From a virus (taxonomy: Duplodnaviria > Heunggongvirae > Uroviricota > Caudoviricetes): a DNA stretch of 64,000 nt. The notes under the pieces were generated by a model, which was given only the letters and a program-made list of their open reading frames with translations, searched no databases and had not been told where the DNA came from. Each line of letters opens with the position of its first letter. Position 1 is the stretch's first letter. Of this stretch, positions 6,170 to 58,521 are shown in pieces. The stretch lies in IMG/VR virus record IMGVR_UViG_3300034045_000104; one strand, given 5' to 3'. A program made the position numbers and the translations under genes.

Positions 6170-8497
6170 TTATTGTGAAATCACTCCAAGTATTGTTTTT
6201 CGCTCCAAGACTTCATGTTGAGTACAGGCTCTTTTAAACGCAGCTTCTTCCCCCACAATATATGCCATTTGCCGTCCTCTAGTAAGCGATGTGTACATTA
6301 AACAGCTAGACAACATCTTAAAAAAACTCATACTTAAAGGAAGCAAAATTGATAAAAATCCAGAGCCTTGCGATTTATGGCAAGTGATTACGTGGCCCAA
6401 TGTTAGCATACTTTCAATGTCAGATTTGTCATATCTGACAACCACTTCTTCGGCCGGATAATACGCCCATAATTTGAACTCATCTATATCAACTTTAATA
6501 ACAGCACCAAGATATCCGTTGAATATTCTCTTTTTAGAATCATCAGGTACTTCTCTATTTGGTTCCTTGTTAAACTCATCAATTGACATAACAGGCATAT
6601 TAAAATTCTTTGTGTGTAAAACCTTATCCATCTTTTTAAAAAGAACCGTATTACCCATTGAATTAACAGAAAGTGCTACGCCTCCTGGGTTCAATGTATT
6701 CTGAATGGTTTGATTTAAATTATCCACTCCCAAAATACCTTTTTTCATTGGAACTATGACTTGAGTAGAATATAGAAACTTCTGAAAATCTCCTTTTTCA
6801 AATGCATCATTGAGCATCCCTTTTTTATTTTCAAATGCTTTTGCTACATGTAAGCAAATACGCATATTGTTATCATTTCTCTGATTAGCTCTAACGTCCT
6901 TATCTCTGGATGGATTATTAATATTAAATGGCGCAAATGCAAAATCAGCATGTCTTGTATGATATTCAGGCACTTGGCCATTTCTTATCTTTTCTGCGTG
7001 TAGGGCGATCACTGAGTTCTCAGACTGTCTGTGGATCGTTTTAAGTTCAAGCACTGGCACTAACTTATTTTTTATAACGTCAATAAACACAGCGCCTGCA
7101 GCAAGGGCGGGTAATTGAGATGGGTCCCCGACCAACACCAATCGCGCATCGGGATGAAGCTTACGCAATAACCGAGCAAATAAAACACTGTCCAACATAC
7201 TGCACTCGTCAATTACTAAAACTTTAAAAGGAATGGTAGCTTCCTGCTTATATTTAACAAGTATAGACATAATTGTACCACCATCAAAACCACTTGCATT
7301 TTTAATCTTATCAGCAGCAATACCAGATAACGCAGTAACATATACCGAATCACGCGTGTAATAAGTTGAAAGAAGCTCCAATATACCCCTGGTAGTAAAA
7401 GTCTTACCGGTTCCTGCATAACCCACAAGCGCCATTATTTTGCGCTCATTTATAGCACGTATAGCACGCACCTGATGAGAGTCATATTTATGCCCAGCTT
7501 TCTTTTCAAGACCAGCAATAAAATTATTCATTTTCTTTTCATTAAGCACAGGGAATATCATTTCATTACTGCGACTATTGAAAAACTCATATAAAAACAT
7601 TTCAGCATCATACAAACTTTTAAGACAATACATGTCGGCATTAAGACAGACAATCTTTTTTGTGTTTATCAATTTCTTAAGCGCAGCTTGGTAATCAAAA
7701 CAATCCCTTGATGTCGTGCCTTTTGCAAATCGAATTAATAAATCATCAAGAATCTTATAGAGATCTATTTTAGATACGATACTGTGCCCGTGCTCTTGAC
7801 CAATCTGCTTAAGGCCATATATGACAGCACTGGAAATTCTAAAGATGGAATTAGGTTCAACCATTCCAGACTCCAAGGCTACTTCATCCAAGCCAATAAA
7901 GCCAATTCCACGAACATCGGTCAATAGATAAATGTTTTCATTAATCCTTCTAGCAATCCCTTCAATATCCTCTAGATAGTGCATATAGACGTTATTAACC
8001 TGGATTGGGGAAAAGCCCAGGGGTAAAAGTAGTTCGGAAATCTCTCTCATAGCAATATGCCTGTGCCATGAAGCGCATATAGTGGCCACCAAGGCTTTGT
8101 TAAATCCTTTCACATGCAAAAGCTCGTGAGGGCGATTTGCTATCATATCAGCAATTTTATCAGCACCAAAATGATCTAATAAGTACAAAGTCTTTTTGGG
8201 CCCCAAACCTGTCACAACCTTGGTTAGAAAATAAAATATTGTGTCAGAACCAACAATCTCAATGGTTTGAATTTGTATTTGTAAATCTTTTGTTTTTTTA
8301 TTTTCAACCCAGTGGCCAGTGACAGAAACATTCTCACCTTTTACCTTGTCAATGTTGCCAAGAGTGTGTTGGCCAAGAATAACCGTACCATTTTTAAGTT
8401 TCAAAATAGCAAAGTTATCTTTTTTATAAATAATGGTTTCAACAACCCCTTTTTGTTTAACTGTTTTACCCATGCTTGATTTTATATTTTCAGACAT
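6170..8497 (-). CDS. recD2: RecD2-type ATP-dependent DNA helicase (SF1B, RecD-like) with N-terminal OB/HhH region
   Basis: Walker A GYAGTGKTF, Walker B LVIDECSML, motif LVGDPSQLPAL and TCHKSQGSGF are present. The N-terminal helix-hairpin-helix block ENIYLLTDVRGIGFIGLDEVA matches the RecD2 ENPYRL..DVxGIGFKTAD signature. Confidence 0.85.
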   Translation of the reverse strand: MSENIKSSMGKTVKQKGVVETIIYKKDNFAILKLKNGTVILGQHTLGNIDKVKGENVSVTGHWVENKKTKDLQIQIQTIEIVGSDTIFYFLTKVVTGLGPKKTLYLLDHFGADKIADMIANRPHELLHVKGFNKALVATICASWHRHIAMREISELLLPLGFSPIQVNNVYMHYLEDIEGIARRINENIYLLTDVRGIGFIGLDEVALESGMVEPNSIFRISSAVIYGLKQIGQEHGHSIVSKIDLYKILDDLLIRFAKGTTSRDCFDYQAALKKLINTKKIVCLNADMYCLKSLYDAEMFLYEFFNSRSNEMIFPVLNEKKMNNFIAGLEKKAGHKYDSHQVRAIRAINERKIMALVGYAGTGKTFTTRGILELLSTYYTRDSVYVTALSGIAADKIKNASGFDGGTIMSILVKYKQEATIPFKVLVIDECSMLDSVLFARLLRKLHPDARLVLVGDPSQLPALAAGAVFIDVIKNKLVPVLELKTIHRQSENSVIALHAEKIRNGQVPEYHTRHADFAFAPFNINNPSRDKDVRANQRNDNNMRICLHVAKAFENKKGMLNDAFEKGDFQKFLYSTQVIVPMKKGILGVDNLNQTIQNTLNPGGVALSVNSMGNTVLFKKMDKVLHTKNFNMPVMSIDEFNKEPNREVPDDSKKRIFNGYLGAVIKVDIDEFKLWAYYPAEEVVVRYDKSDIESMLTLGHVITCHKSQGSGFLSILLPLSMSFFKMLSSCLMYTSLTRGRQMAYIVGEEAAFKRACTQHEVLERKTILGVISQ

Positions 8498-8744: not shown

Positions 8745-9101
8745 TTAAAAAACAACGCTTAGAGAAACCCCGTTACTATCCTCAGGCGTTGTATAACGTG
8801 TAAACAGACCATTTCTTTTCGCCACATTCTCTTTAACCACGTTTGGCGTATAGAACATCACATGTTGAGAACTTACTAGATTTGTATATTGAAAAGAACT
8901 ATCAATACATTCATTATCTTCATTTCTAAATAAAAAATAACAAGCTTTCAATACACCACCATACTTATCAATATGGCACTCAATTCTCAATGGCAAGGAT
9001 TCCTTTGCCCAACGCGCATTAACACGCTCAACACCTTTTAAACTTCTCTTATATAGCTCATCGCTCTTGATTGATTCCAAAGTATTCATAACAATTCTCA
9101 T
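8745..9101 (-). CDS. hypothetical protein
   Basis: 118-aa ORF. Confidence 0.35.
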   Translation of the reverse strand: MRIVMNTLESIKSDELYKRSLKGVERVNARWAKESLPLRIECHIDKYGGVLKACYFLFRNEDNECIDSSFQYTNLVSSQHVMFYTPNVVKENVAKRNGLFTRYTTPEDSNGVSLSVVF

Positions 9102-9148
9102 TTTGTATTGTTAATTTTAAGCATGCTAAAGTTCCAACAAAGCATCAA

Positions 9149-9523
9149 TTAGATGCCGCCATTCTGGTAAAACTCAAAGTTTTTAAAACCCTCAGTCCAC
9201 CAATCAAATTCCTTTGAGCCTTTCTCAAAAGGACAACTTTTATCCATATAGTTGCCATCTGCAACCATCGCTCCTTTACCTCTATAATAGACAGCCTGCA
9301 CATCGATGTTTTCATTTAGAAAATCAACAAGCAACTCAGGCTTACCAAATTCAATTCCGTGATTCATTTTTATCGCCTTAAAAACCGCGACAGCCAAAGA
9401 GCAGGGGATAGCGCCATCATTATCACAAATCCATCTTCCTTTACCGTTACAAGCAATTAGATAATTATGGGGCATTAATCTTAATGTTTCACTTGACTCA
9501 TCATATTTTATAAATACTGCCAT
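9149..9523 (-). CDS. hypothetical protein
   Basis: 124-aa ORF. Confidence 0.35.
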   Translation of the reverse strand: MAVFIKYDESSETLRLMPHNYLIACNGKGRWICDNDGAIPCSLAVAVFKAIKMNHGIEFGKPELLVDFLNENIDVQAVYYRGKGAMVADGNYMDKSCPFEKGSKEFDWWTEGFKNFEFYQNGGI

Positions 9524-9575
9524 TTTGTAACCTCTTCAATTTATTATAATGAATTATAATTTAGCTAGAAATCCC

Positions 9576-9604
9576 AAAAAAAAAGGGTGCTAAAAACACC
9601 CTTT
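9576..9604. terminator. bidirectional rho-independent terminator
   Basis: A9 run, then hairpin gggtgctaaaaacaccc, then tttt. It lies downstream of minus-strand gene 9626-9964. Confidence 0.5.
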
Positions 9605-9625
9605 TAAGCTTTAGTATTTCAGGAA

Positions 9626-9964
9626 TTAGGCATCAGCGGGTAAATAGAAAGCAGCAAATTCGTATGTTTCACCACAATACTTGCCATCAACACTAGGATA
9701 AATAGCATCATTCCAGACTTTAAAGCTATGGAACACAGTCCTATAATCCGACTCTTTTCCCCCATCCATTACCTTGAAATCATCCTTAAAATCAAGTCCA
9801 GTAGAAGCATCAATATCGATATAATTAATAGAATTTTCTGAAATTAGCTTTTGCGCAGCTTTAATGCGCTTGATTTGGTCTTTACTTAGGTCAAATTCAA
9901 TATGCGTGATATCAAGATTTTCACCAGTTTCAAGATTTAAATTGTATTTCATGTGTTTCACCAT
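9626..9964 (-). CDS. hypothetical protein
   Basis: 112-aa ORF. Confidence 0.35.
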   Translation of the reverse strand: MVKHMKYNLNLETGENLDITHIEFDLSKDQIKRIKAAQKLISENSINYIDIDASTGLDFKDDFKVMDGGKESDYRTVFHSFKVWNDAIYPSVDGKYCGETYEFAAFYLPADA

Positions 9965-10005
9965 AGTTATTAGATTGATATATTTTAGTCCAACTCGATT
10001 TACGA

Positions 10006-10320
10006 CTATTGAGAATTGCGCATACCCTCAAACCAAACATCCAACCATTTTTCCCCATTTTTAGGGTTCGCATAATTAGCCACGGTTTCACAATCATCGA
10101 CCATCAAAGTGATGTAAGCAGCACCAACAACATGACCTTCAGAATTACTAAACCTAAGCTCACACTCATCAACTGATTCTATGGCCTCATGTATCTCTGA
10201 TTTCTTTTTAGAGCGAATAACCGCCCAATCTTCAGTATCGAACACAGAAACAAAAAAGCCCATTTTATCAATGGCATATTTTACTAGCGATTTGTATGCT
10301 TTCATTACATTTGACTCCAA
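10006..10320 (-). CDS. hypothetical protein
   Basis: 104-aa ORF. Confidence 0.35.
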   Translation of the reverse strand: MESNVMKAYKSLVKYAIDKMGFFVSVFDTEDWAVIRSKKKSEIHEAIESVDECELRFSNSEGHVVGAAYITLMVDDCETVANYANPKNGEKWLDVWFEGMRNSQ

Positions 10321-10360
10321 TTTGATTAATACTACATTCTAGGGTAACTACAAATACAGT

Positions 10361-10555
10361 TTATTTATGAACCCGATTTAACAAATCACACGCCTTTTGT
10401 TTTATCAACAACTCATCCCCATACATTTTATTGAACTCAGCATTGGAAACCCTTACCTTGATTGGGAAAGATGAATTATTTAAAACAGGGGTTAAAATCA
10501 CATCGCTAACACTATTTAACCACCCAACAGATCGAATATCAGAAACCTTAATCAT
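10361..10555 (-). CDS. hypothetical protein
   Basis: 64-aa ORF, the first gene downstream of the iteron array. Confidence 0.3.
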   Translation of the reverse strand: MIKVSDIRSVGWLNSVSDVILTPVLNNSSFPIKVRVSNAEFNKMYGDELLIKQKACDLLNRVHK

Positions 10556-10633
10556 GCATCACCTACAATAATTATTAATTAAAATATATTATACGAGTGC
10601 GAGAAAACACACATTAGAAAACCAACAACAAAA

Positions 10634-10830
10634 AATGTTCCTGATGTCCGAATGGAAATGTTCCTGATATCCGAGTGGAAATATCCCTGTTATCCGTTGA
10701 AATACTCTATGTTTAGTTGAAATGTTCCTGTTATCCAAGTGGAAATATCCCTGTTATCCGTTGAAATGTTCCTGTTATCCGAGTGGAAGTGTTCCTGATA
10801 TCCGAGTGGAATTACAGTTATCCACAGACC
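10634..10830. repeat. iteron-like tandem direct repeats (8-9 copies, 20-23 bp period), candidate origin or operator array
   Basis: Unit about aaTGTTCCTGWTATCCGAGTGGaa, repeated head-to-tail with mild degeneracy. The last unit is agTTATCCACAgacc. An AT-rich tract lies at 10561-10633. Confidence 0.75.
10818..10826 (+). promoter_or_regulatory. perfect DnaA box TTATCCACA at end of iteron array
   Basis: Exact match to the DnaA-box consensus TTATNCACA. Upstream iterons carry TTATCC cores with 2-3 mismatches in the last three positions. Confidence 0.5.
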
Positions 10831-10868
10831 AATACCAAACCATCTGGTACGAACATCCATAGGAATAT

Positions 10869-10905
10869 AAAAATAAAAAAACGGCATACATTTAAATGTA
10901 TGCCG
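10869..10905 (-). terminator. rho-independent terminator downstream of methyltransferase gene
   Basis: Perfect 9-bp stem cggcataca/tgtatgccg with loop tttaaa, preceded on the plus strand by an A-run (T-run on the minus transcript). Confidence 0.65.
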
Positions 10906-10967
10906 CTAAATTTCTATTGGCAACCAATTCACCAATAGACCCCTAAAAAACAAATTTCAAACAAGCC

Positions 10968-11729
10968 TTATTTTGAACACCTAGCTTTAATCACACTCTG
11001 CTCAGAAAAACAATCAACTTGTCTAATTTCATTATTAATCCTTTTCACACTCCCATCATAATAATCCCTATCATTTTCACAGGCATCAATCTTATAGCCT
11101 AACTTATTTGATGAGATGGACAAAGAACCCGAACCATGATGAGAATCAAAGATAGTCATGCCAGGGCTTATGTATTTATTTAAAATCCAGTCATACAAAG
11201 CAACGGGCTTCTGACATGGATGGATTCGCATCTCATTTAATTTTTTATTGCCATTTTGAACATGGCCATTAATAACACCAGAACCTTGCATCATCCCACG
11301 CCACATGAATCTAAACAAATCCACTCTTGATGTCATGGAGTTATAAGCAATTTCACAATTACTTTGATCACTCCCCTCGTTGCATTTATCCCAAATGATT
11401 CTGCCAGAACCAAAATATTCATTAAAGTAATTGCATCCAAATATTATTTGATGTTTTGTGACTCTGCGCAACTCTTTAAAATACAAGCTGCCCACAGGTT
11501 CATCATCCCACTGTTTTCTTTTATATCCACCATCTACAACAAAAACCTTACCACCGTTAGCTTGTTCAACCCATGTTGAACGAGATGTACCTCCATGCTG
11601 TTTCCTACCCCACTGCGGGTCAACAATGCCGACATCATAATGATTGTCTTTAAGACCAGCCATAAACTCCATACAATCTACAAAATACAAAGAGGAGGTG
11701 CCAAGTGTTGTTTTTTCAAAATCTTTCAT
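10968..11729 (-). CDS. DNA methyltransferase, beta-class (N6-adenine or N4-cytosine; motif IV before motif I)
   Basis: N-terminal DPQW (DPPY/W-like motif IV, VGIVDPQWG) and C-terminal AdoMet motif I IFDSHHGSGSLSISSNKLGYKIDACEND. This order is typical of Pfam N6_N4_Mtase-type enzymes. Confidence 0.7.
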   Translation of the reverse strand: MKDFEKTTLGTSSLYFVDCMEFMAGLKDNHYDVGIVDPQWGRKQHGGTSRSTWVEQANGGKVFVVDGGYKRKQWDDEPVGSLYFKELRRVTKHQIIFGCNYFNEYFGSGRIIWDKCNEGSDQSNCEIAYNSMTSRVDLFRFMWRGMMQGSGVINGHVQNGNKKLNEMRIHPCQKPVALYDWILNKYISPGMTIFDSHHGSGSLSISSNKLGYKIDACENDRDYYDGSVKRINNEIRQVDCFSEQSVIKARCSK

Positions 11730-11743
11730 AATATCGCCTTAAT

Positions 11744-12061
11744 TTATGCTGCCAATGCCAAACAAACCTTGTTTTTAAGCACTCGTATTCTGTCAATGAT
11801 CTCAGAACAAATGGATCCGCACAACAATTCACCATTTCTTAATTGAGATTCTAATTCTTTTTCAAGCTCTGAAACGCATTTGCCTTCGAGTATATCTTGA
11901 ATGTCACCAACTGGCTTTATTTTTAAATCTTCAAGCAATTCGATTAATGCCTGCTCATATGAATCATGATAGTCTGTTATCTCCTCACCAACATCTGTCA
12001 TACCTATATAAACCGACTTGCCTGATGCTCCAAATTCTTGAGTTACTGTAAATTTTGACAT
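11744..12061 (-). CDS. hypothetical acidic protein
   Basis: 105-aa ORF. Confidence 0.35.
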   Translation of the reverse strand: MSKFTVTQEFGASGKSVYIGMTDVGEEITDYHDSYEQALIELLEDLKIKPVGDIQDILEGKCVSELEKELESQLRNGELLCGSICSEIIDRIRVLKNKVCLALAA

Positions 12062-12117
12062 GTCGCTAAATCTCCGTAATTGTTAATTAATATATTATAC
12101 AAATACTAGAATTTAAA

Positions 12118-12264
12118 TCATTCCCAATCACTAATTTCAAAGCTTCCACAATCAGGGCATAATTTACACTCATCGTCCAATGAAGATGTTTCACTAACCA
12201 ATTCCCCATGTTCCCCAACCCACCCACAACTATCACATTCCAACAATTCATCTAGTTCATCCAT
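12118..12264 (-). CDS. small zinc-ribbon protein (48 aa, CxxC-x26-CxxC), below ORF-track cutoff
   Basis: Reverse translation gives MDELDELLECDSCGWVGEHGELVSETSSLDDECKLCPDCGSFEISDWE*. A GGAG lies 7 nt upstream of the ATG. It fills a gap between genes that is otherwise empty. Confidence 0.35.
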   Translation of the reverse strand: MDELDELLECDSCGWVGEHGELVSETSSLDDECKLCPDCGSFEISDWE

Positions 12265-12299
12265 ATCACACTCCACTTACAAAAAACATTATCAAGACT

Positions 12300-12614
12300 C
12301 TATTCACACTTAAACAATAACTTTGAATCAATTATTTCTGGCTTTACACCATCTGCCAAACCCGCTGAAACATACAGCAACTCACCATCCTGCTTTTTTA
12401 CAAAAACATAGAAACCATCTTCAAATCTTTCATTTGCCCCTTTCAGGAGAGCATAATCAGTAATAGGAATAACGTCATCTTGTAGCATATCAGAACACAT
12501 GCGTAAAACCGTTTCTTCATCAAATCCAAACTTCTCATAAGATGGGGTAGGGCGCTTATCAATACTGGCACACCCAACCACAAACAAAACCATTATCAAA
12601 CCAATAATTCTCAT
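12300..12614 (-). CDS. putative lipoprotein
   Basis: N-terminus MRIIGLIMVLFVVGCAS has a signal peptide with a lipobox-like VVGC. Confidence 0.45.
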   Translation of the reverse strand: MRIIGLIMVLFVVGCASIDKRPTPSYEKFGFDEETVLRMCSDMLQDDVIPITDYALLKGANERFEDGFYVFVKKQDGELLYVSAGLADGVKPEIIDSKLLFKCE

Positions 12615-12678
12615 ACAATCTCCAAAGCCTATTATTTAAACATCATTAAATACAATTCATTATAGAAGAGCCAAAACA

Positions 12679-13068
12679 TCAATCAACAAAAATAATGCAC
12701 TTGTGTATCATCGCTTCAAGCAGTCTAAAGACAAAACTAGCCATGCCATCACATGATATAATATTATTTCTACCGTCATCATACTCAATCACAATCTCAC
12801 AGTGATTATGTACATACAAGTTAATTGCATCAGATACACTTATCTTTTCAACCTCAGCCAAATCAACTGCGACAAGATTTGGTATATCTTCTTTTTCATG
12901 ATCCTCATACCAGTCGTTAATTTCTTTCTCGGTCATTTTAAACAGGTCTTCAGGCAAGCCACCGCGAAAATAGTCAGATAAGTGCCACTCTAGCATTACA
13001 TATTCTTCAGTTAAGGCAAGTTTATTTTCCTTCAAACCCAATTCATTTGAATAGATATCTAGCTTCAT
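12679..13068 (-). CDS. hypothetical protein; paralog of the left-edge ORF (1-240)
   Basis: Shares the DYFRGGLPEDLF...INDWYEDHEKEDIPNLV block with the edge ORF. Confidence 0.45.
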   Translation of the reverse strand: MKLDIYSNELGLKENKLALTEEYVMLEWHLSDYFRGGLPEDLFKMTEKEINDWYEDHEKEDIPNLVAVDLAEVEKISVSDAINLYVHNHCEIVIEYDDGRNNIISCDGMASFVFRLLEAMIHKCIIFVD

Positions 13069-18034: not shown

Positions 18035-18343
18035 CTAAAAATTACACACCAAAGGCCCATCTAACATTTCTAATAAACCTAACATTTCATATTCATCACT
18101 ATCTACAATCATACAAGGCTGTTCCCAATACTTTGATTTAAGAAACCACTCCTTGCCCGTGCTGACAGATTTCAAACTTAACATTTCATCATCAACACCT
18201 ACCAAGTAGTAACAATCTGATTGACCAAGATGCTTAAGATGATTTAAAAACCCCGTGCCACCAAAAGCAATAATCTTACCAATCAAATCAGCAAGAGTAT
18301 CCTCGTCAACAAAAGGGAAGGGCATGTAATAAAGTATCATCAT
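18035..18343 (-). CDS. hypothetical protein
   Basis: 102-aa ORF. Confidence 0.35.
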   Translation of the reverse strand: MMILYYMPFPFVDEDTLADLIGKIIAFGGTGFLNHLKHLGQSDCYYLVGVDDEMLSLKSVSTGKEWFLKSKYWEQPCMIVDSDEYEMLGLLEMLDGPLVCNF

Positions 18344-18739
18344 GCATCAGCGTGGTTAAACACAACCCAATGATACCAACGCCTAACAAAATCAAGCGGA
18401 GCTACCCCCAACAAAACTCACCTTTTCATGATGATACTATGATGCTCAATATTGACTATATAAGTCAAAATAATACCAACCCATGATGAAACTCTATTCC
18501 TTGCTTACAATCCATGTAGACTGGAAATAAAGTATCATCGCCTTTAATAAAGTGTCATCCTCTAAATTAACAAATAACCATATACAGTTATTTGGTCAAA
18601 TTAATTCCAAATAATTAACTAATATCTGGAATTTTACGATGATACTTTAAATTTAAAATTTACTAAATTAAGCAAAAAACTAACCTATAATACCGTTTTA
18701 ACGATTAAACTTTATTTTCAATCTACAATCCATTAAACC
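18344..18739. promoter_or_regulatory. about 400-bp non-coding region with repeated AAAGTATCATC motifs and a conserved 17-mer
   Basis: TAAAGTATCATC or TAAAGTGTCATC appears at about 18335, 18527 and 18548, with inverted copies GATGATACT at about 18432 and 18638. The 17-mer cTcTATTCCTTGCTTACA at 18491-18508 recurs 17/18 identical at about 35346-35363. Confidence 0.4.
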
Positions 18740-23353: not shown

Positions 23354-23473
23354 ATCTCACCATTATTCTAATTATTAAGATTATAGAGTGACTATAAAGA
23401 CCAAGCCTTATTCACATAAAGCCATTTTCATAACCAACACCCCAAATAAAAATAAATAAAACATATTAGACAT

Positions 23474-27226: not shown

Positions 27227-27235
27227 TTATCCACA
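27227..27235 (+). promoter_or_regulatory. perfect DnaA box TTATCCACA upstream of ssb
   Basis: Exact 9-mer in the 27121-27457 intergenic region, about 110 bp upstream of the ssb start. Confidence 0.3.
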
Positions 27236-28305: not shown

Positions 28306-29202
28306 CTACAAATCCACCGAAACATGACCGCCTAAAATACCAACATCAGAAACAGATTGTACGTTTTTCAATTGGTCGTCAAAAAAAATATCTGCCCCAA
28401 AAGCTTTTACAAACTCACCTTTATCTAAGCCACCCAAAAACACAGATTCATCCATCCTTAAACCCCAATGCCTTATAGTTTTTAGAACCCTTTTGTGGGT
28501 TGGGCTACAGCGAGCCGTTATCATACAAGTACGAATTGGCACATCATCAATCCCAAAACAAGATTGAATATCATGCAAACCAGACAAAAAACCTTTAAAC
28601 AAACCATCTTCTAATGGCACGTTTTCATTTGCGACTTCGTGTTCTGTAAAGGCTTTTAATCCACCTGACTTAAAAAGACTTTCAGAAGCACTAGAGAACA
28701 ATACAGCATCACCATCAAAACCAATTCTCAAGGGCTCATCATCACACTCATTAGAAACAAAAGACCCATCAACACGTAAATGCGCTGCCGCTATACCATT
28801 ATCAAGACAGCTTTTAACTTCCTTGGCATGGGCTGACAAAAACAAATCAACACCATAAGCTTTAATGTATTCACTTCTTGAACCACCTTTAGTAAAAGCA
28901 CCTTTTTGAATATTAAGTCCATAATGTTCAATTGAATTAAAAATCCGTAAACCAACATCACCATGATTCCTAGAAACCATCACCACTTCAACTAAGGCAT
29001 CCCCAGTAACAGGGCTTTTAATATTTAGAAGTTTTTCCACAATCCCAAATGCAACTCCCTTTTTGAGAATTTTAGTTTCGTTTTGAATTTGATAATCCCG
29101 ATATTCATCCACTCCTTTGGATAAAAATAATTGATGTTCACTATCAAGATTAAATAAAACCCTTGAACTTACCGCTATTACCAATTTTGACATAATATTC
29201 AC
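28306..29202 (-). CDS. hypothetical protein; possible HAD-like phosphatase or nucleotidase
   Basis: 298-aa protein with an internal IGFDGDAVLF (DxDx[TV]-like HAD motif I). The assignment is weak. Confidence 0.3.
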   Translation of the reverse strand: MNIMSKLVIAVSSRVLFNLDSEHQLFLSKGVDEYRDYQIQNETKILKKGVAFGIVEKLLNIKSPVTGDALVEVVMVSRNHGDVGLRIFNSIEHYGLNIQKGAFTKGGSRSEYIKAYGVDLFLSAHAKEVKSCLDNGIAAAHLRVDGSFVSNECDDEPLRIGFDGDAVLFSSASESLFKSGGLKAFTEHEVANENVPLEDGLFKGFLSGLHDIQSCFGIDDVPIRTCMITARCSPTHKRVLKTIRHWGLRMDESVFLGGLDKGEFVKAFGADIFFDDQLKNVQSVSDVGILGGHVSVDL

Positions 29203-46772: not shown

Positions 46773-46921
46773 TTCTTACTCCAAATATAAAATTACAAAT
46801 CATTATATTCCTGCGAGATAACAAAAAAAATGACGTGAATTGACACTTGAAATGGCGATAAATCTCACTCTTGTTGACAGAAATCTCAATCTTGTTGGCA
46901 ATTCACGGGATGAAAAATGTG

Positions 46922-48306: not shown

Positions 48307-48609
48307 CTAACTAATATAAAAACCATTATTAGAATTTTCTTTAAACACAAGTATAATAATTACATTATTTCTTAGCCTTAACTCCAACTCATGAATTTTA
48401 AGAAATTTATTTACATTGTATGAAATAATTTCAGCATCAATTAAATTATGAGATTTGCTGTCATGCAAAAAAGGAGTCCCATCTTTATATGAAATTGTAG
48501 CATCAAGAATAATTGAGTAATTATCCTCTAAAAGCAATTGTGTTACATTCCCACCAATTGTTTCAATAGAAACAATGGAATCACCTATCAAAGAAAAACC
48601 ATCAGACAT
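48307..48609 (-). CDS. hypothetical protein
   Basis: 100-aa ORF, AT-rich, isolated between non-coding tracts. Confidence 0.25.
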   Translation of the reverse strand: MSDGFSLIGDSIVSIETIGGNVTQLLLEDNYSIILDATISYKDGTPFLHDSKSHNLIDAEIISYNVNKFLKIHELELRLRNNVIIILVFKENSNNGFYIS

Positions 48610-48711
48610 AAAATAAATATTTAATATAAAAATGTATTATAAATCAAATAATGAAACAACTATATAAAATACCAATATAGGTTAATAATAACATAAGAAA
48701 CTACCAAGATG

Positions 48712-49466
48712 GCCTCCTCACCAGAATACTAAAACTGTGTCAGAACCTCACCAAATAGTAAAATTGTGTCAGAACCTCACCAGAATAGCAAAACTGTGTC
48801 AGAACCTCACCAAATAGCAAAACTGTGCCAGAACCTCACCAAAATAATGAAATATACAAAAAAAACAAAGAAAACAGTGCGGTATTAACACGTTCTAGCA
48901 TAAGATTAGAGTTATATAGCATTAAAGCTCCCGAATATATGTAACTTCAACACACTAAATTGGGACTATTACGAGGTTCTGGTGAGGTTCTGACACAGTG
49001 TTTTGGGGTTATTGCGTGAATCTGGTGAGGTTCTGACACAGTATTTTGGGGTTATTGCGTGAATCTGGTGAGGTTTTAACACACTAAACTGGGACTATTA
49101 CGAGGTTCTGGTGAGGTTCTGACACAGTATTTTGGGGTTATTGCGTGAATATGGTGAGGTTTTAACACACTAAATTGGGACTATTACGAGGTTCTGGTGA
49201 GGTTTTAACACAGTGTTTTGGCGCTATTGCGTGAATCAAGTGAGGTTCTGACACGCTAATTAGGTGCTATTACGTGAATCTAATGAGGTTTCAACACACT
49301 AAATTGGGACTATAAACCGGTTCTGGTGAGGTTTTAACACAGTGTTCTGGGACTATTACGAGGTTCTGGTGAGGTTTTAACACAATTTTGGTGAGGTTTT
49401 AAAACAGCATGGTGAGGTTGTGAAACAACGTGGTGAGGTTGTGAAACAGTAAAAATATTTAAAACG
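48712..49466. repeat. large iteron-like repeat region with TGTGTCAGAACCTCACCA 18-mers in opposite orientations (4-5 copies left, about 13 right)
   Basis: The left array (48716-48848) has 32-33-bp units cctcaccaRaataSYaaaaYtgtgYcagaa. The right array (48961-49450) has alternating about 43-bp units, tggtgaggttctgacacagtRttttggggttattgcgtgaat and tggtgaggttttaacacactaaaYtgggactattacgaggttc, that decay to about 21-bp units (tggtgaggttgtgaaaca). An AT-rich tract follows at 49466-49556. Confidence 0.8.
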
Positions 49467-49556: not shown

Positions 49557-51215
49557 ATGATGAAAAAAAAAGATAAAAGGAAAAAAATGTTAAGCAAAGA
49601 AGAAGAAGAAAAAGAACGCATTAAAGAAAAGCTTAAAAAGCAATATTTAGAATCAGCGGAAACTGAGTATGATGATAATGAAAAAGTATCTAACAGTCTT
49701 CTTGATACTCCTTCCATGATAAATGCTCAAGCAAATAATATAAATGAACAAACCAAATTTGATGACGTAGACATTGATGATTTATGTGAGATAGGTGAAT
49801 CCAAAAACTTAAATTTAGATGATTACGAAATAATCACAGATACTACAGCATACGAAGATTATGGAATAAAACCATTTGAACATTTCGGGAATAAAAAAGT
49901 TGCTATAACAGAAGAAATTATAAACAAAAACAGATTGATCCAAACCGAAAGGAGTATAGAAAGGTATGTAGGGCAAATCTTTCCATCAAATAAATCAGAA
50001 AGATTAAACAAGGAATACAGCAAGCAATGGCCAGTAAAGGCAAGACATAAAATTTCTGGAAAAGTCATAACTGTGGGAACCCAAGGAATAAAGATAAAAC
50101 CATCGCTTGATAAACTTCGGTATACCACAGAGACATTGAAAATATATTGGGCACTAATATTTTTGTGGAACGCAAATGGCTGTCCAGAAGCTAATGTTGA
50201 GATTGAAAGCAATTTAAGTGATCTTTGTAAAATACTAACCATCGAAAAAAATGGGGAAGTATATAAAAGGCTAATCAAAGAATTATATTGCCTTAAGGAG
50301 ACAAGTTTAGAATTCTTGCGCTCGTTTGAAGTAAAGGGCGGGGAAAAATACAAATCCAGAAACATAAATATATTAACTGAATTCAATCACAATTATCGTG
50401 AGAAAACACAAAATAAATACGAAAAAGCATTAGAATTAGACAAAGAACACCAAAGCAAACAAAAATTTTCTTTTAAATTCAATTCTGACATTATTGAAAA
50501 CCTCAAAAACAAAGTAACAATCCCGGTTAACCTAAAAGTATTGAATTCAATTCGGTCATCTATTGCTCAAAGCATGTACACAAAAACCAACAAAATATTA
50601 ATGTGGCGGTATAAAGAAGCACTGAGAGGGGGGATAGTAGACTATGAAAATACAGCGCGAAGAATTGTTGGAGAAATAGGATTAAAACAAAAAAACTATA
50701 AATACCCATCAAGAAGAAAAGCATTAATAAATTTAATAGTCAAGGCTCTTGATGGAAAAGAATTAACACAACCAGGCTACACAATAAAAGCAGAATTATT
50801 TGATGCTGCAAACATGGATTACAAAGTAAGATTTACTTTGGTTGTGGATAAAACTAAAATAAAAAAATCAAATAGGCCAAAAGTTATTAATACTGATCCT
50901 GATGTAATAAGGACAATTATAGATAGAATCAAGGAATACATTCAACCAAAAACTAACAAAGATGATGACGCATATAAGATTTATGCACAAGTTTATTCTT
51001 ATGATCTTATTAATGTAGCTGTTGGCCAAGCTAGAGAAAAAGAAGAATATTTAAAAACAATAGGCAATGAAGTAACTAATAGAGGCGGCTGGTTTTCTAA
51101 TACACTTCACCAAGAAGTTCATAAAAAAAGGCTTAAATGGATTGATGGATGTGATGATAACAATGAAAGTTGTCCAATTTTAAAAAGATTAAAAAATGAA
51201 GGTTACATAGTCTAA
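49557..51215 (+). CDS. Lys-rich protein adjacent to the repeat array; candidate replication initiator or partition/centromere-binding protein
   Basis: 552-aa plus-strand ORF starting within 100 bp of the repeat and AT-rich region. It has a highly basic N-terminus and no recognisable catalytic motif. Confidence 0.45.
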   Translation: MMKKKDKRKKMLSKEEEEKERIKEKLKKQYLESAETEYDDNEKVSNSLLDTPSMINAQANNINEQTKFDDVDIDDLCEIGESKNLNLDDYEIITDTTAYEDYGIKPFEHFGNKKVAITEEIINKNRLIQTERSIERYVGQIFPSNKSERLNKEYSKQWPVKARHKISGKVITVGTQGIKIKPSLDKLRYTTETLKIYWALIFLWNANGCPEANVEIESNLSDLCKILTIEKNGEVYKRLIKELYCLKETSLEFLRSFEVKGGEKYKSRNINILTEFNHNYREKTQNKYEKALELDKEHQSKQKFSFKFNSDIIENLKNKVTIPVNLKVLNSIRSSIAQSMYTKTNKILMWRYKEALRGGIVDYENTARRIVGEIGLKQKNYKYPSRRKALINLIVKALDGKELTQPGYTIKAELFDAANMDYKVRFTLVVDKTKIKKSNRPKVINTDPDVIRTIIDRIKEYIQPKTNKDDDAYKIYAQVYSYDLINVAVGQAREKEEYLKTIGNEVTNRGGWFSNTLHQEVHKKRLKWIDGCDDNNESCPILKRLKNEGYIV

Positions 51216-51565: not shown

Positions 51566-51692
51566 AAATTAATCCCTCAAGAAAAGTTTGCACTGGCAGT
51601 AATGGCATAGACTGATAAAAACACAACAACCAGACCAACATTGTATAAAACCCGGTTATCATTGTCAATCACCTCCCAAAGCTAGAACCCAA

Positions 51693-52181
51693 TACTCAAT
51701 ATTAGGTATTGTACTATACACAAAGCACCACCAAACAAAGCCAAGAACCTACTAAACCATACCCAAGCATAGGTATTGCACTAGACCATAACACCTACCA
51801 CCCCATACAATCCCAAACTATATGCCCCGAGATCTTCCTGAAATAGCAATTTATTCCAGCCACCTTGTGCCATTAAGTAAGGCATATTTATGTTTATCTT
51901 TTGTATGTATGGGTATTTTAAGTTGAGCTTTTACATGTCCAGCTTGTTAATGTTTGGCTTATAATATGTCAATCATATTCATGTTAGCCTTAAATACGTT
52001 TGGCTTATAACAAGTTTGTCATGAGTCAGTATGGCACTTTTTAGTTTATATTATTATGTTATGGGGATTGGAGGAACGCTTAAGGTAAGTACAATACCTA
52101 ATAGTAAGTATTGTATAGAAAAGCTTTAGTTACAGGAGTCAAGCTTGAAAGGGGAGGGAATGTTGAGTACAATACCTACCG
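51693..52181. promoter_or_regulatory. structured non-coding region: four copies of 13-mer TAGGTATTGTACT (two direct, two inverted) flanking degenerate about 15-bp periodic repeats
   Basis: taggtattgtact at 51703 and taggtattgcact at 51770 on the plus strand. agtacaataccta at 52089 and agtacaatacctacc at 52166 are the reverse complement. Between them (51885-52025) lie about 9 imperfect repeats resembling nnATGTTTGGCTTAt. Confidence 0.45.
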
Positions 52182-52204
52182 TAAGGTATCTTAGGAGTTA
52201 AACT

Positions 52205-53017
52205 ATGAAAGCAGATGTAATATTTAGAAAAGCATATGATTATGAAAGAACCATTCTGGCACGCATGGCTAAGTGGGAATCCTCAGGACAAGCTGTTGCG
52301 TTGTTTGTTGATGAGCAGTATCCTGCAGCTTATGTCACCCAACTGTTGCCCCCAGCTTTCATTCGCAGGGTAGTGGCCGTAAAAGATGCTCAAGATTTCG
52401 CACAGATTACTGACCTAGTTCATGAAATGAATAAATACTACAAGATGGCAGTTATTGCAGATCATGATGGCGATGAAAAGGCCTACAAAGGGCCAATGAA
52501 TCGATTTGCTGTGTGTGTTAAAGATGTGTTGTATGCAAGACATGTGCTCAAACAAAGCTGGGAGTCTATCAACGACTTTAAAAAGAGCCCCTTTGATTAC
52601 ATTCCTCTTATTTCAGTGAAAACTAAATGGGACCAAACACTTACCAATCTACAAAAGGAAGAAAAACTTTGTGAGTACGGTACCGTGCTATTAGCCAATG
52701 GCATCCAAAATGAATTCAAACATGGTACCTTGTATGGCCAAATAGATGGCATCAGAAAATATGGTAATGCACCAGGGCTTATAATTAGATCTCCAACTGG
52801 CACCCATCATAAAATGCACCTTAAATTTAAAGACCCTGAGTTAAAAACTAAAACCCTGGCTTGTGGCTATATTATTAGTAACGGTGAATTTGATGTTTTT
52901 AAAACAAAGCCAAGGACAAGGAAAAGACAGATTCAAGATATTCGAGAACAAATCAATCTGCCTATTTATACAGCCAATAGAACATTTTGGAAGGCAAAAG
53001 CCAATGAAATGAGCTGA
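52205..53017 (+). CDS. hypothetical protein
   Basis: 270-aa plus-strand ORF with no motifs. SD-like aggag lies upstream. Confidence 0.45.
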   Translation: MKADVIFRKAYDYERTILARMAKWESSGQAVALFVDEQYPAAYVTQLLPPAFIRRVVAVKDAQDFAQITDLVHEMNKYYKMAVIADHDGDEKAYKGPMNRFAVCVKDVLYARHVLKQSWESINDFKKSPFDYIPLISVKTKWDQTLTNLQKEEKLCEYGTVLLANGIQNEFKHGTLYGQIDGIRKYGNAPGLIIRSPTGTHHKMHLKFKDPELKTKTLACGYIISNGEFDVFKTKPRTRKRQIQDIREQINLPIYTANRTFWKAKANEMS

Positions 53018-53052: not shown

Positions 53053-53973
53053 TTACATATCTAAAATTTGTGCAAGCTGGTCATTTATATAAATTGGATC
53101 AACAAGCCCGATTTTTGCCTTTTTAACTGCATCATCAACGTAAGATAAACCCGTGTGCCCATCTGAACACTTGGAGCTGCACCAAAATTCAGAAGCTCCA
53201 ATAAAATCACCTTTTTGGATATAAGACAAATATTCATCAGTCGGAATTAATATTTCAAAAACACCAGTTCTACCAACAATACCATTTATACAATGCTCAC
53301 AACCACTTTCATTAACAAACCTTAAGTTCATCATGTCCTGTGCAAACATATTTTTAATTACGACATGATATTTAGGACTTATAAACTTTTTAGCCTGAAC
53401 AAAATTTAATCTACAATGCTTACATAAAACATTAACAAGCCTTTGTGATATAACAGCTTTAACAGCGTTGTGCTTAATCATATCATTAATAGGTATATTA
53501 ATATCTGAAATCATTCTAGGAAATAAATGAGAGGCGTTTATTGAGTGTAGAGAAGATAACACCATATGTTTTTCGTCAATTAACCTAAACACTGCATTTG
53601 CAGTATTTAAATCACGTATCTCGCTAACCAATATTACATCAATTCCCTTTTTTGAAACAATGTTAATAGCATTGGAATAATTGACGTTTCTTTTATTTAC
53701 ACCATCACCAATGCCATGTAAAACCTGATTTTGCCTAACCCCATCAATATTATATTCTATAGGATCTTCTATAGAGCAAATTATTTTATTTGCTTGGTGA
53801 TAGTTATCAATGAATTCAAGCATTACTTTTAGTGTTGTGCTTTTTCCTGAGCCAGTTGGACCCACCACAAAAATACCACCATCTGAGGATTTCAAAATCG
53901 GTTTTAAAACAGCAATAACATCATTGCTAAAACCTATGTTTGTTAATTTAAATGAATTTGTAAACATCACCAT
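53053..53973 (-). CDS. GspE/PilB-family secretion ATPase, C-terminal ATPase domain only (no N-terminal domains)
   Basis: Walker A GPTGSGKSTTL, Asp box IEDPIEY, Walker B DVILVSEIRD, His box HMVLSSLHS, and the GspE-type tetracysteine Zn site CKHC...GCEHCINGIVGRTGVFEIL (compare GCxxCxxTGYxGRxGIxELL). Only about 35 residues precede Walker A. Confidence 0.75.
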   Translation of the reverse strand: MVMFTNSFKLTNIGFSNDVIAVLKPILKSSDGGIFVVGPTGSGKSTTLKVMLEFIDNYHQANKIICSIEDPIEYNIDGVRQNQVLHGIGDGVNKRNVNYSNAINIVSKKGIDVILVSEIRDLNTANAVFRLIDEKHMVLSSLHSINASHLFPRMISDINIPINDMIKHNAVKAVISQRLVNVLCKHCRLNFVQAKKFISPKYHVVIKNMFAQDMMNLRFVNESGCEHCINGIVGRTGVFEILIPTDEYLSYIQKGDFIGASEFWCSSKCSDGHTGLSYVDDAVKKAKIGLVDPIYINDQLAQILDM

Positions 53974-58383: not shown

Positions 58384-58521
58384 TAACTCACTCTCTCATA
58401 TAACAACATAAACCACACCACCTAAAATATTATATCACACAATTACAAACACTAGCATTGCTGACATATTGCCAGGTTGCATATCGATATATTCACCCAA
58501 AGCGCCAACATTAAAACCCTA

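What the first reader, a model, noticed from the sequence alone, without database searches (positions are those of the whole stretch)
10561..10905. Second iteron array (8-9 copies of a 22-bp unit) ending in a perfect DnaA box, between a terminator and the next operon
Head-to-tail repeats of about aaTGTTCCTGWTATCCGAGTGGaa have two-helical-turn periodicity. The final unit carries TTATCCACA, an exact DnaA-box consensus. The upstream units carry TTATCC cores, and an AT-rich stretch lies at 10561-10633. This resembles DnaA-assisted iteron origins (for example P1 oriR, pSC101) or a DnaA/iteron operator array controlling the downstream operon. With the array at 48712 this gives two distinct candidate origins in one window, suggesting separate lytic and plasmid-like replication modes or a replication-and-partition pair. 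A second perfect TTATCCACA lies at 27227-27235 upstream of ssb.
Basis: seen in the sequence. Interest (0 to 1): 0.7.

Follow-up and report, generated by a model that had tools for sequence, protein, structure and literature searches.

The report
Orphan iteron-like array before small operon
Eight head-to-tail 20-23-bp repeats and one textbook DnaA box lie between a terminator and the promoter of a three-gene cassette on a large plasmid-like element; they probably dock a DNA-binding protein, but the element's clear replication origin is a different repeat field 38 kb away.

Summary
Window 10633-10830 carries seven well-conserved units, one degenerate unit and one partial unit of 20-23 bp. The last carries TTATCCACA. 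The unit core occurs nowhere else in the window and matched nothing in any collection searched.

The origin reading is weakly supported. TTATCCACA is not enriched (3 found, 1.15 expected). The unit cores are not DnaA boxes. The AT-rich flank is an ordinary promoter and 5'UTR, and 37 other loci melt as easily. No initiator gene lies nearby, and gene orientation does not switch here.

The other array (48716-49449) abuts a 552-aa protein whose homologues match plasmid initiator families. It is flanked by the two least stable DNA segments of the window. Its iterons do not resemble this array.

The array belongs to a 1.3-kb cassette bounded by terminators: DnaA box, repeats, T-rich spacer, TATAAT, then a basic 64-aa orphan ORF and two acidic ORFs.

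Best reading (about 0.4): a multi-site docking platform for an unidentified DNA-binding protein that controls the cassette promoter. Main rival (about 0.25): an orphan or secondary DnaA-assisted iteron origin, or an incompatibility locus served in trans. This is a new member of a known kind. Interest is modest.

The parts
10880..10907 (-). Intrinsic terminator (12-bp stem, then a T tail running to about 10870). It ends the upstream methyltransferase unit and insulates the array from upstream transcription.
   Evidence: Terminator scan; perfect 12-nt inverted repeat I5; methyltransferase ORF 10968-11729 on the minus strand matches PF01555.
10817..10827 (+). Single consensus DnaA box, TTATCCACA at 10818-10826, inside the 11-mer GTTATCCACAG. 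It lies in the decayed ninth unit at the end of the array far from the promoter.
   Evidence: The same 11-mer occurs twice in the E. coli K-12 oriC stretch. It is the only copy of the 11-mer in the window.
10633..10809 (+). Eight head-to-tail units, U1 to U8. Start-to-start spacing is 23, 23, 21, 20, 23, 21, 23 bp. The conserved 18-bp site is AAAT[G/A]T[T/C]CCTG[A/T]TATCC[G/A], followed by a 3-5-bp spacer. U4 is degenerate.
10810..10830 (+). Partial ninth unit, AATTACAGTTATCCACAGACC.
10614..10632 (-). T-rich spacer (on the minus strand: TTTTTTGTTGTTGGTTTTC) between the array and the core promoter, at about -33 to -51.
   Evidence: Sequence. Positions relative to the start site are inferred.
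10588..10593 (-). TATAAT -10 hexamer of the cassette promoter. There is no clear -35. The inferred transcription start is near 10581, which places the array at about -52 to -228 and the DnaA box at about -237 to -245.
   Evidence: Sequence. The same layout, TATAAT 30-40 nt upstream of the ATG, recurs in at least 10 intergenic gaps of the window. The start site is inferred, not measured.
10559..10564 (-). Shine-Dalgarno sequence AGGTGA, 3 nt before the ATG of orf64.
   Evidence: Sequence.
10361..10555 (-). orf64, the first gene after the array. It is the only basic protein of the cassette (pI 9.4) and an orphan. It is a candidate, unproven, for the array-binding autoregulator.
   Evidence: The only database hit is itself. 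No Pfam or PHROG family. AlphaFold2 model has pLDDT 55 and is uninformative. pI.
10006..10305 (-). orf99, acidic (pI 5.0). It belongs to a small family found in clusters of short ORFs on phage contigs.
   Evidence: AlphaFold2 pLDDT 84.5 with no solved-structure match. pI.
9626..9964 (-). orf112, acidic (pI 4.8), the last gene of the cassette.
9581..9605 (-). Intrinsic terminator that closes the three-gene cassette. A further TATAAT promoter follows it.

Best explanation
The array is a docking platform for a sequence-specific DNA-binding protein that has not been identified.

Shown: seven good 18-bp sites, all in one orientation, are spaced about two helical turns apart. They cover about 180 bp from roughly -52 to -228 upstream of a TATAAT promoter. 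That promoter drives a short cassette (orf64, orf99, orf112) bounded by terminators on both sides.

Inferred: protein monomers or dimers bind head to tail along the array and form an extended nucleoprotein complex. This complex sets the activity of the adjacent promoter, either by repression through coating or wrapping, or by upstream activation. The most economical candidate binder is the basic 64-aa product of the first gene, which would make the cassette autoregulated. The single high-affinity DnaA box at the far end may add a host DnaA input or help nucleate the complex.

The array is not the element's main replication origin. That origin is the Rep-linked iteron field at 48716-49449.
For: - The array is real, directional and confined to this gap.
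- It sits inside a self-contained unit: terminator 10907-10880, array, T-rich spacer, TATAAT, Shine-Dalgarno, three ORFs, terminator 9605-9581.
- The promoter type is the element's standard one. The 'AT-rich region' is therefore explained as promoter and 5'UTR.
- orf64 is the only basic protein in the cassette, with pI 9.4 against 4.8-5.0 for the other two.
- The element already has a complete origin elsewhere. The 552-aa ORF has 180 homologues at E up to 0.001. Of 50 aligned (the query and 49 homologues), 12 match PF10134 'Replication initiator protein A' and 6 match Rep3_N.
- At least 17 iterons, TGGTGAGGTTYTRACAC, lie directly upstream of that ORF.
- The two least stable duplex segments of the whole window flank that field at window sizes of 40, 70 and 100 bp.
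- A related element carries a 32%-identical Rep with different iterons. This is the co-variation expected of a cognate pair.
- A weight matrix built from those iterons scores array 1 at -19.5 at best, against more than 15 for true sites.
- Other large intergenic gaps of the element carry their own distinct repeat sets. Gap-specific protein-binding clusters are thus a theme of this element.
- Members of the orf99 family in L041, L046 and L133 sit in clusters of short ORFs downstream of long gene-free stretches. Those in L041 and L046 carry short repeats.
Against: - No binding protein is identified. orf64 has no homologues, no family match and no confident fold.
- The array stops about 50 bp short of the core promoter. 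It does not overlap the promoter, as most direct-repeat operators do.
- Sites of 18 bp at 21-23-bp spacing are more typical of Rep iterons than of transcription-factor sites (my knowledge of RK2, P1, F, R6K and pPS10).
- A flank-perfect DnaA box next to direct repeats is a hallmark of iteron origins.
- No relative carrying the array was found, so conservation and co-variation could not be tested.
- Only 64 kb of a contig of about 143 kb is visible.
Confidence: 0.4

Rival explanations
1. The array is an orphan or secondary DnaA-assisted iteron origin, or an iteron-based copy-control or incompatibility locus. Its initiator would be encoded elsewhere, in the unseen part of the contig of about 143 kb or on another replicon, as trfA lies apart from oriV in RK2. 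Initiator monomers would bind the direct repeats, DnaA would bind the box, and the adjacent AT-rich DNA would open.
For: - Seven to eight direct 18-bp sites at 21-23-bp spacing.
- One DnaA box whose 11-mer also occurs twice in the E. coli oriC stretch, in the same orientation as the units.
- The order DnaA box, iterons, AT-rich segment matches RK2 oriV (my knowledge).
- The site lies in a transcriptionally insulated gap.
- The closest cellular homologues of the element's 5'-nucleotidase are Gamma- and Betaproteobacteria at 47-57% identity. In such hosts TTATCCACA is the canonical box.
- The cloned array alone would be expected to exert incompatibility.
Against: - No initiator is adjacent or anywhere in the window. 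The Pfam and NCBIfam family summaries of 102 ORFs list no initiator family. A profile of the Rep family finds only the 552-aa ORF.
- The AT-rich flank is about 40 bp long, carries the promoter and Shine-Dalgarno sequence, and is matched or exceeded in instability by 37 loci. It ranks at the 5th and 11.5th percentile for 70-bp and 100-bp windows.
- There is a single box and no enrichment.
- Gene orientation and GC skew do not change at 10.6 kb. All neighbouring genes are on the minus strand.
- A complete Rep-iteron origin exists at 48.7-51.2 kb.
- If the host is a member of Campylobacterota (the nearest cellular RecD2 is Hydrogenimonas at 33-36%), its DnaA box core is TTCAC with a strictly conserved T at position 5. 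TTATCCACA lacks that T (PMC5043019).
Confidence: 0.25
2. The array is a centromere-like partition or positioning site, comparable to sopC of F, parC of R1 or the stbDR repeats of R388. A centromere-binding protein would bind it and segregate the large low-copy element.
For: - Tandem direct repeats in an intergenic gap of a large plasmid-type element.
- Direct-repeat centromeres often lie upstream of a small operon whose first or second product binds them (my knowledge).
- orf64 is small and basic.
Against: - No ParA, ParM or TubZ NTPase and no ParB, ParR or ParG family appears in the family summaries of the window's ORFs.
- The cassette encodes only 64-, 99- and 112-aa proteins.
- A better candidate for a maintenance site lies next to the Rep gene. 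Five palindromic 24-bp repeats at 51690-52189 sit upstream of a 270-aa ORF. A similar CAATACCTA-type motif and a 270-aa ORF also lie next to the Rep homologue in L040; homology of the two 270-aa ORFs was not tested.
Confidence: 0.1
3. The array is a functionless product of recent tandem duplication (slippage or unequal crossing-over) in a spacer region.
For: - Two 49-nt A+B blocks are 96% identical, which points to recent segmental duplication.
- One unit is degenerate.
- The array has no counterpart in any relative or collection.
Against: - Seven units keep 16 of 18 core positions while their spacers vary in length. This is the pattern expected of constrained binding sites.
- The element is tightly packed, and its other large gaps also hold organised repeats.
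Confidence: 0.08
4. The array acts as RNA. A weak TATATT promoter just after the terminator would transcribe the array as a long 5' leader. Its 15 GGA motifs (CGGAUAWCAGGAAC in each unit) could sequester a CsrA/RsmA-type protein.
For: - On the coding (minus) strand every good unit carries two GGA triplets.
- A TATATT lies at about 10866-10861.
Against: - Neither strand folds better than shuffled sequence as RNA; z-scores are +0.21 and +0.95.
- No Rfam family matches; the best E-value is 0.18 and overlaps the terminator.
- The only hairpin I could draw by hand places GGA in the stem, not in the loop.
- A strong terminator lies immediately upstream.
- The GGA excess follows trivially from repetition.
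Confidence: 0.05

Closest known systems
Iteron origins of theta-replicating plasmids (RK2 oriV, P1 oriR, pSC101, F ori2)
   Same: Direct repeats with an 18-bp core at 21-23-bp spacing, all in one orientation. A consensus DnaA box at one end and an AT-rich segment at the other, in the same order as in RK2 oriV.
   Different: No cognate initiator gene is next to the array or in the window. There is only one DnaA box. The AT-rich segment is short, ordinary and occupied by a promoter. Gene orientation and skew do not switch. The element has a separate, complete Rep-iteron origin whose iterons are unrelated.
The element's own Rep-linked iteron field (window 48716-49449 plus the 552-aa RPA/Rep_3-like initiator at 49557-51215)
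   Same: Both are tandem direct-repeat arrays with periods near 21-22 bp, lying in large intergenic gaps of the same element.
   Different: The other array has at least 17 sites in two opposed blocks. It abuts the initiator gene, is flanked by the two least stable DNA segments of the window, and marks the point where gene orientation diverges. Its motif, TGGTGAGGTTYTRACAC, does not match array 1 (weight-matrix score -19.5).
Direct-repeat operator or centromere arrays bound by small autoregulators (omega of pSM19035, ParR/parC of R1, StbA/stbDR of R388)
   Same: A run of head-to-tail repeats lies immediately upstream of the promoter of a small operon whose first gene encodes a small basic protein. 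Cooperative coating of 100-200 bp is the expected mode of action.
   Different: Those units are 7-11 bp long, overlap or flank the core promoter, and are bound by known RHH or HTH folds. Here the units are 20-23 bp, the array ends about 50 bp upstream of the -10 region, no such fold could be assigned to orf64, and no partition NTPase is present.
Repeat-rich untranslated 'iss' region of T5-like phages, with eight DnaA boxes (Davison preprint, doi 10.1101/866236)
   Same: A non-coding, repeat-rich region carrying a DnaA box, next to early or anti-defence-type genes of a mobile element. A role other than replication origin has been proposed for it.
   Different: T5 has eight DnaA boxes in a conserved arrangement, with inverted repeats and palindromes. 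Here there is one box and a plain direct-repeat array. No sequence similarity was found.

Membership tests
Iteron-type plasmid or phage replication origin | Tandem direct repeats of about 17-22 bp spaced about two helical turns apart | tested here: met
   Seven good units and one degenerate unit. Spacing is 23, 23, 21, 20, 23, 21, 23 bp.
Iteron-type plasmid or phage replication origin | A cognate initiator (Rep) gene, normally adjacent, whose product binds the repeats | tested here: not met
   The flanking genes are a methyltransferase and a 64-aa orphan ORF. No Rep family appears in the family summaries of 102 ORFs. A Rep-family profile hits only the 552-aa ORF. About 79 kb of the contig was not visible.
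Iteron-type plasmid or phage replication origin | An adjacent DNA-unwinding element: an exceptionally unstable AT-rich segment | tested here: not met
   The least stable 40-bp window beside the array is equalled or exceeded at 37 distinct loci. It ranks at the 5th and 11.5th percentile for 70-bp and 100-bp windows. Ranks 1 and 2 flank the other array. The segment carries the -10 hexamer and the Shine-Dalgarno sequence.
Iteron-type plasmid or phage replication origin | Host DnaA box or boxes next to the iterons | tested here: met
   One exact TTATCCACA at 10818-10826. Its 11-mer occurs twice in the E. coli oriC stretch. Whether it fits the host DnaA is uncertain, because the host signals conflict.
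Iteron-type plasmid or phage replication origin | Autonomous replication or incompatibility of the cloned fragment | not testable with these tools
   Requires an experiment.
DnaA-box cluster (oriC-like, datA-like, or the T5 iss region) | Several DnaA boxes (0-2 mismatches) clustered beyond expectation | tested here: not met
   There is one box at the array. Window-wide counts are 3 against 1.15 expected for exact matches and 31 against 28.4 for up to 1 mismatch. The unit cores match the 9-mer at only 5-6 of 9 positions and miss positions 7-9.
Partition centromere (type I, II or III par locus) | Adjacent genes for a partition NTPase and a centromere-binding protein | tested here: not met
   No ParA, ParM, TubZ, ParB, ParR or ParG family appears in the window summaries. 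The cassette proteins are 64, 99 and 112 aa with no family match.
Direct-repeat operator with a small autoregulator (omega/ParR/CopG-like) | The repeats lie at the promoter of the operon that encodes the binding protein | tested here: inconclusive
   The array lies at about -52 to -228 from the inferred start site of the cassette promoter. It is adjacent to the core promoter but does not overlap it.
Direct-repeat operator with a small autoregulator (omega/ParR/CopG-like) | A small DNA-binding fold (RHH, HTH or AbrB) in an operon product | tested here: inconclusive
   orf64 is basic, but its AlphaFold2 model has pLDDT 55 and it has no family match. The orf99 model has pLDDT 84.5, shows no helix-turn-helix and matches no solved fold.
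CRISPR-like repeat or RNA anti-CRISPR mimic | Repeats separated by spacers, or the same repeat present in host CRISPR arrays | tested here: not met
   The units abut with no spacers. The unit pattern gave only 8 single hits in metagenome contigs, none in a repeat array, and none in viral or genome contigs.
Frpo/ssi single-strand promoter of plasmid leading regions | An intergenic strand that folds into a long duplex-mimicking hairpin | tested here: not met
   As single-stranded DNA both strands fold less well than shuffled sequence, with z-scores of +1.63 and +1.40.
Tn7- or Mu-type transposon end | Multiple roughly 22-bp transposase sites with an inverted partner end and a transposase gene | tested here: not met
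   No copy of the unit lies on the opposite strand anywhere in the window. No transposase family appears in the ORF summaries.

The most novel reading that the evidence does not exclude
The array could be a set of 'foreign' iterons with no cognate initiator on the element. It would sit among anti-defence and establishment-type genes and act as a decoy. By titrating or handcuffing the initiator of a competing plasmid or phage, together with host DnaA, it would use incompatibility as a weapon between mobile elements. A related reading is that it is a second origin fired only by an initiator supplied in trans by a co-resident element.
Probability: 0.06. Interest if true: 0.7.

Novelty: new member of a known kind. 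Interest (0 to 1): 0.3.

Why it matters
The practical value is mainly corrective. The window does not hold two comparable origins. It holds one well-formed Rep-iteron origin at 48.7-51.2 kb and an orphan repeat array attached to a small cassette.

If the array is a control platform, it is a compact and experimentally tractable example of multi-site direct-repeat regulation. It sits in an otherwise uncharacterised large plasmid-like element from an uncultured host.

If the array proves to be a trans-served origin or a decoy, it would bear on how large mobile elements keep several replicons or compete with each other. No current evidence favours that reading.

Tried and rejected
Searches for relatives that carry the array:
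- The exact unit pattern gave 0 hits in viral contigs and 0 in genome contigs.
- In metagenome contigs it gave 8 single chance hits, none in a repeat array.
- blastn in distant mode found nothing in plasmids or phages, and megablast of 9000-13000 found nothing in phages.
- Exact look-ups of window proteins failed.
- The nearest relatives by helicase, L030 (75% identity) and L031 (47%), lack the array and the small ORFs.
- Loci of methyltransferase homologues have no such array.
- Viral-contig scans with orf99 and orf124 found nothing.

Searches for the binding protein:
- orf64 has no homologue, no family match and a low-confidence model.
- orf99 gave a good model but no fold match.
- Contexts of the orf99 family contain no similar array.

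Hypotheses considered and rejected:
- Array 1 as weak sites for the element's Rep, rejected by the weight-matrix scan.
- Structured RNA or an Rfam family.
- Frpo-type single-strand promoter.
- Coding repeat. Unit lengths of 20 and 23 bp are not multiples of 3, and no plausible ORF spans the array.
- CRISPR-like mimic, transposon end and attP arm sites. No spacers, no inverted partner, and no transposase or integrase family were found.
- DnaA low-affinity site array. The spacing is 8 and 15 bp, not about 11 bp, and the sites match only 5-6 of 9 positions (sequence).

Host assignment stayed ambiguous.
Full report
OBSERVATION. The sequence at 10633-10830 is a genuine head-to-tail repeat array. 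Tandem Repeats Finder gives period 23, 8.1 copies and score 169, and a 64-bp higher-order period scoring 247. Parsing by hand and aligning the units gives five 23-bp A-type units, AAATGTTCCTGWTATCCGAGTGG (U1, U2, U5, U7, U8). There are also two 21-bp B-type units, AAATATCCCTGTTATCCGTTG (U3, U6), one degenerate 20-bp unit (U4) and a partial ninth unit (U9, 10810-10830).

The conserved part is an 18-bp site, AAAT[G/A]T[T/C]CCTG[A/T]TATCC[G/A], followed by a 3-5-bp spacer. Start-to-start spacing is 23, 23, 21, 20, 23, 21, 23 bp. The motif is far beyond chance and confined to this gap. The 20-mer core with up to 3 mismatches occurs 5 times against 0.02 expected. CCTGWTATCCG with up to 1 mismatch occurs 9 times against 0.77 expected, 7 of them in the array. 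Outside the array, the 10-mer core with 1 mismatch is at background: 6 hits, against 4.9 expected for the whole window. Two 49-nt A+B blocks are 96% identical, so the array has grown by recent segmental duplication.

ANATOMY ON THE CODING STRAND. About 97 of 103 ORFs in the window are on the minus strand. Read on that strand, the order is as follows:
- A DNA methyltransferase gene at 11729-10968, matching PF01555.
- An intrinsic terminator at 10907-10880 with a T tail.
- The DnaA box and then units U9 to U1.
- A T-rich spacer, then a TATAAT hexamer at 10593-10588.
- AGGTGA at 10564-10559 and the ATG of a 64-aa ORF at 10555.

TATAAT at 30-40 nt upstream of the start codon, with no clear -35, recurs in at least ten other gaps. 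It is the element's ordinary promoter type. With an inferred start near 10581, the array spans about -52 to -228 and the DnaA box about -237 to -245. After orf64 come orf99 and orf112, then a second intrinsic terminator at 9605-9581 followed by another TATAAT promoter. The array therefore belongs to a self-contained 1.3-kb cassette between two terminators. It is not part of the RecD2 helicase operon as such.

THE DnaA CLAIM. TTATCCACA is present at 10818-10826. The window holds three exact copies against 1.15 expected, and 11 of 100 shuffles reach three. With up to 1 mismatch there are 31 against 28.4 expected, and no cluster at the array.

The 'TTATCC cores' occur in only five units. They continue as GAG or GTT rather than ACA, so they match the 9-mer at 5-6 of 9 positions and are not DnaA boxes.

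In favour of the single box, its 11-mer GTTATCCACAG occurs twice in the E. coli K-12 oriC stretch I fetched; from my knowledge of oriC these are boxes R1 and R4. It is also unique in the window. Given that GTTATCC is already part of the unit, the extra ACA has a chance of roughly 0.03 in one decayed unit. This is my inference from the base composition. It is suggestive but not significant once the search for known motifs is allowed for.

Whether the box suits the host is unclear. The helicase's nearest cellular relatives are Hydrogenimonas (Campylobacterota) at 33-36%. The DnaA box core in that group is TTCAC with a strictly conserved T at position 5 (PMC5043019). The 5'-nucleotidase's nearest relatives are Gamma- and Betaproteobacteria at 47-57%, where TTATCCACA is canonical.

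WHERE THE ORIGIN IS. The 552-aa ORF at 49557-51215 has 180 homologues at E up to 0.001 among 1.84 billion representatives. I aligned it with 49 of them. Of those 50 sequences, 12 match PF10134 (Replication initiator protein A), 6 match Rep3_N and 2 match Rep3_C. It is a plasmid-type winged-helix initiator.

Directly upstream lie at least 17 copies of TGGTGAGGTTYTRACAC in two opposed blocks, followed by AT-rich 14-mer repeats. A nearest-neighbour stability scan shows that the two least stable duplex segments of the entire 64 kb flank this field, starting at 48604-48612 and at 49491. This holds for window sizes of 40, 70 and 100 bp. Gene orientation diverges there and the GC skew changes sign.

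A related element from the same sample as L030, the 75%-identical helicase contig, has a 32%-identical Rep preceded by different iterons, GTTAGACTACCYGYGTAA. This is the co-variation expected of a cognate Rep-iteron pair. The main replicon is therefore accounted for.

By contrast, the AT-rich flank of array 1 is equalled or exceeded in instability by 37 separate loci. It ranks only at the 5th and 11.5th percentile for 70-bp and 100-bp windows. Array 1 does not resemble the Rep iterons: the best weight-matrix score is -19.5, against more than 15 for true sites. A Rep-family profile finds no paralogue in the window. The Pfam and NCBIfam family summaries of 102 ORFs list no other initiator, partition protein, integrase or transposase.

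THE BINDING PROTEIN IS NOT IDENTIFIED. orf64 is the only basic product of the cassette, with pI 9.4 against 5.0 and 4.8. However, it has no homologue among 5.8 billion proteins other than itself. It has no family match even at E up to 10, and its AlphaFold2 model is unreliable at pLDDT 55.

orf99 belongs to a small family (43-51% identity). In L041, L046 and L133 its members sit in clusters of short ORFs downstream of long gene-free stretches; short repeats occur in those of L041 and L046. Its model is confident (pLDDT 84.5) but matches no solved fold and shows no helix-turn-helix. One of those phage contigs (L046) has a tandem doublet of GTTATCCACAG about 340 bp upstream of the homologue. L041, L131 and L134 have no exact box, and the only one in L133 lies about 4 kb away, so there is no consistent association.

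COMPARATIVE EVIDENCE IS ABSENT. The unit pattern has no match in viral contigs or genome contigs and only eight single chance hits in metagenome contigs. blastn in distant mode finds nothing in plasmids or phages. The closest relatives by helicase lack the array and the small ORFs. Conservation and co-variation, the most powerful tests, could not be applied.

OTHER READINGS TESTED:
- As RNA, neither strand folds better than shuffles; z-scores are +0.21 and +0.95. No Rfam family matches.
- As single-stranded DNA, both strands fold worse than shuffles; z-scores are +1.63 and +1.40. This excludes an Frpo-type promoter of the kind described for plasmid leading regions (PMC11541004).
- The units abut with no spacers, and the repeat occurs in no repeat array in the collections. 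This argues against a CRISPR mimic.
- No inverted copy and no transposase argue against a transposon end.
- No NTPase or centromere-binding family argues against a par locus. A better candidate maintenance site is the group of palindromic 24-bp repeats at 51690-52189, upstream of a 270-aa ORF. A similar motif and a 270-aa ORF lie next to the Rep homologue in L040.

INTERPRETATION. What is shown is a directional, multi-site, sequence-constrained array lying immediately upstream of a standard promoter, inside a cassette bounded by terminators. The element's origin lies elsewhere.

What is inferred is that a sequence-specific protein coats the array and sets promoter activity, possibly with DnaA input. 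orf64 is the simplest candidate for that protein. I give this reading about 0.4.

The geometry (18-bp sites at two-turn spacing, with a DnaA box) is nevertheless that of Rep iterons, and more than half of the contig is unseen. An orphan or secondary origin, or an incompatibility locus served in trans, therefore stays at about 0.25. A centromere-like site gets about 0.1, neutral duplication about 0.08 and an RNA role about 0.05. The remainder is unassigned.

COMPARISON AND NOVELTY. The array works most like iterons, or like the direct-repeat operator and centromere arrays of plasmids. It fails the membership tests for an iteron origin on the initiator and the unwinding element. It fails the test for a par centromere on the motor and binding proteins. 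It is inconclusive for an autoregulated operator. Its sequence is new and orphan, but the kind of element is known, so I rate it a new member of a known kind. Interest is modest (0.3). The main result is that the 'second origin' is not on a par with the first.

Noticed in passing
window 48716-49449 and 49557-51215: This is a canonical plasmid-type replicon. At least 17 iterons (TGGTGAGGTTYTRACAC) lie in two opposed blocks, followed by AT-rich 14-mer repeats and a 552-aa initiator whose homologues match PF10134 RPA and Rep3_N. The field is flanked by the two least stable DNA segments of the window. The related contig L040 has a 32%-identical Rep with different iterons, GTTAGACTACCYGYGTAA.
   Followed up: yes
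window 18328-18716; L031 21420-21479: A third repeat cluster lies in a 396-bp gap: six copies (three on each strand) of AATAAAGTWTCATC(ATG). The same motif, GGGAATAAAGTTTCATCATG, occurs as three tandem 20-bp copies at the end of the distant relative contig L031 (helicase 47% identical). This cis element is therefore conserved in the lineage, unlike the 10.6-kb array.
   Followed up: partly
window 51690-52189; L040 about 1170-1270: About five copies of a palindromic 24-bp unit, CAATACCTAATAnTAAGTATTGTA, lie upstream of a 270-aa ORF (52205-53017) next to the Rep gene. A similar motif and a 270-aa ORF lie next to the Rep homologue in L040; their homology was not tested. This could be a maintenance, centromere or operator site.
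   Followed up: partly
L046 4640-4662 (also L047 and L048): An unrelated phage contig carries a tandem doublet of the 11-mer GTTATCCACAG, that is, two perfect DnaA boxes 11 bp apart. It lies in an 850-bp divergent gap about 340 bp upstream of a homologue of orf99.
   Followed up: partly
window 1-48106 (whole minus-strand block): About 97 of 103 ORFs are on one strand. They include SSB, two DNA methyltransferases, Sir2, a 3'-5' exonuclease, a PAPS-reductase-like protein, an ORF matching an anti-restriction PHROG, a counterpart of the AcrVA2-like ORF of L030 (4152-5069, 73% identical), a 743-aa sigma-70-like protein, RecD2 and ribonucleotide reductases. This resembles a plasmid leading or anti-defence region, or a phage early region. 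No virion genes were seen in the window.
   Followed up: partly
window 6170-8497 and 28306-29202: The host signals conflict. The nearest cellular homologues of RecD2 are Hydrogenimonas (Campylobacterota) at 33-36%. The nearest homologues of the 5'-nucleotidase are marine Gamma- and Betaproteobacteria at 47-57%.
   Followed up: partly
window, at least 10 intergenic gaps (for example 9524-9625, 23354-23473, 46773-46921, 58384-58521): Promoter layout is uniform. An exact or near-exact TATAAT lies 30-40 nt upstream of the ATG, with T-rich DNA upstream and no recognisable -35. It often follows an intrinsic terminator directly.
   Followed up: partly
window 53053-53973: A 306-aa GspE/PilB-type secretion ATPase (T2SSE, E = 2e-44) is followed by several small membrane-protein ORFs. 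This is an unexpected neighbour of the replicon.
   Followed up: no
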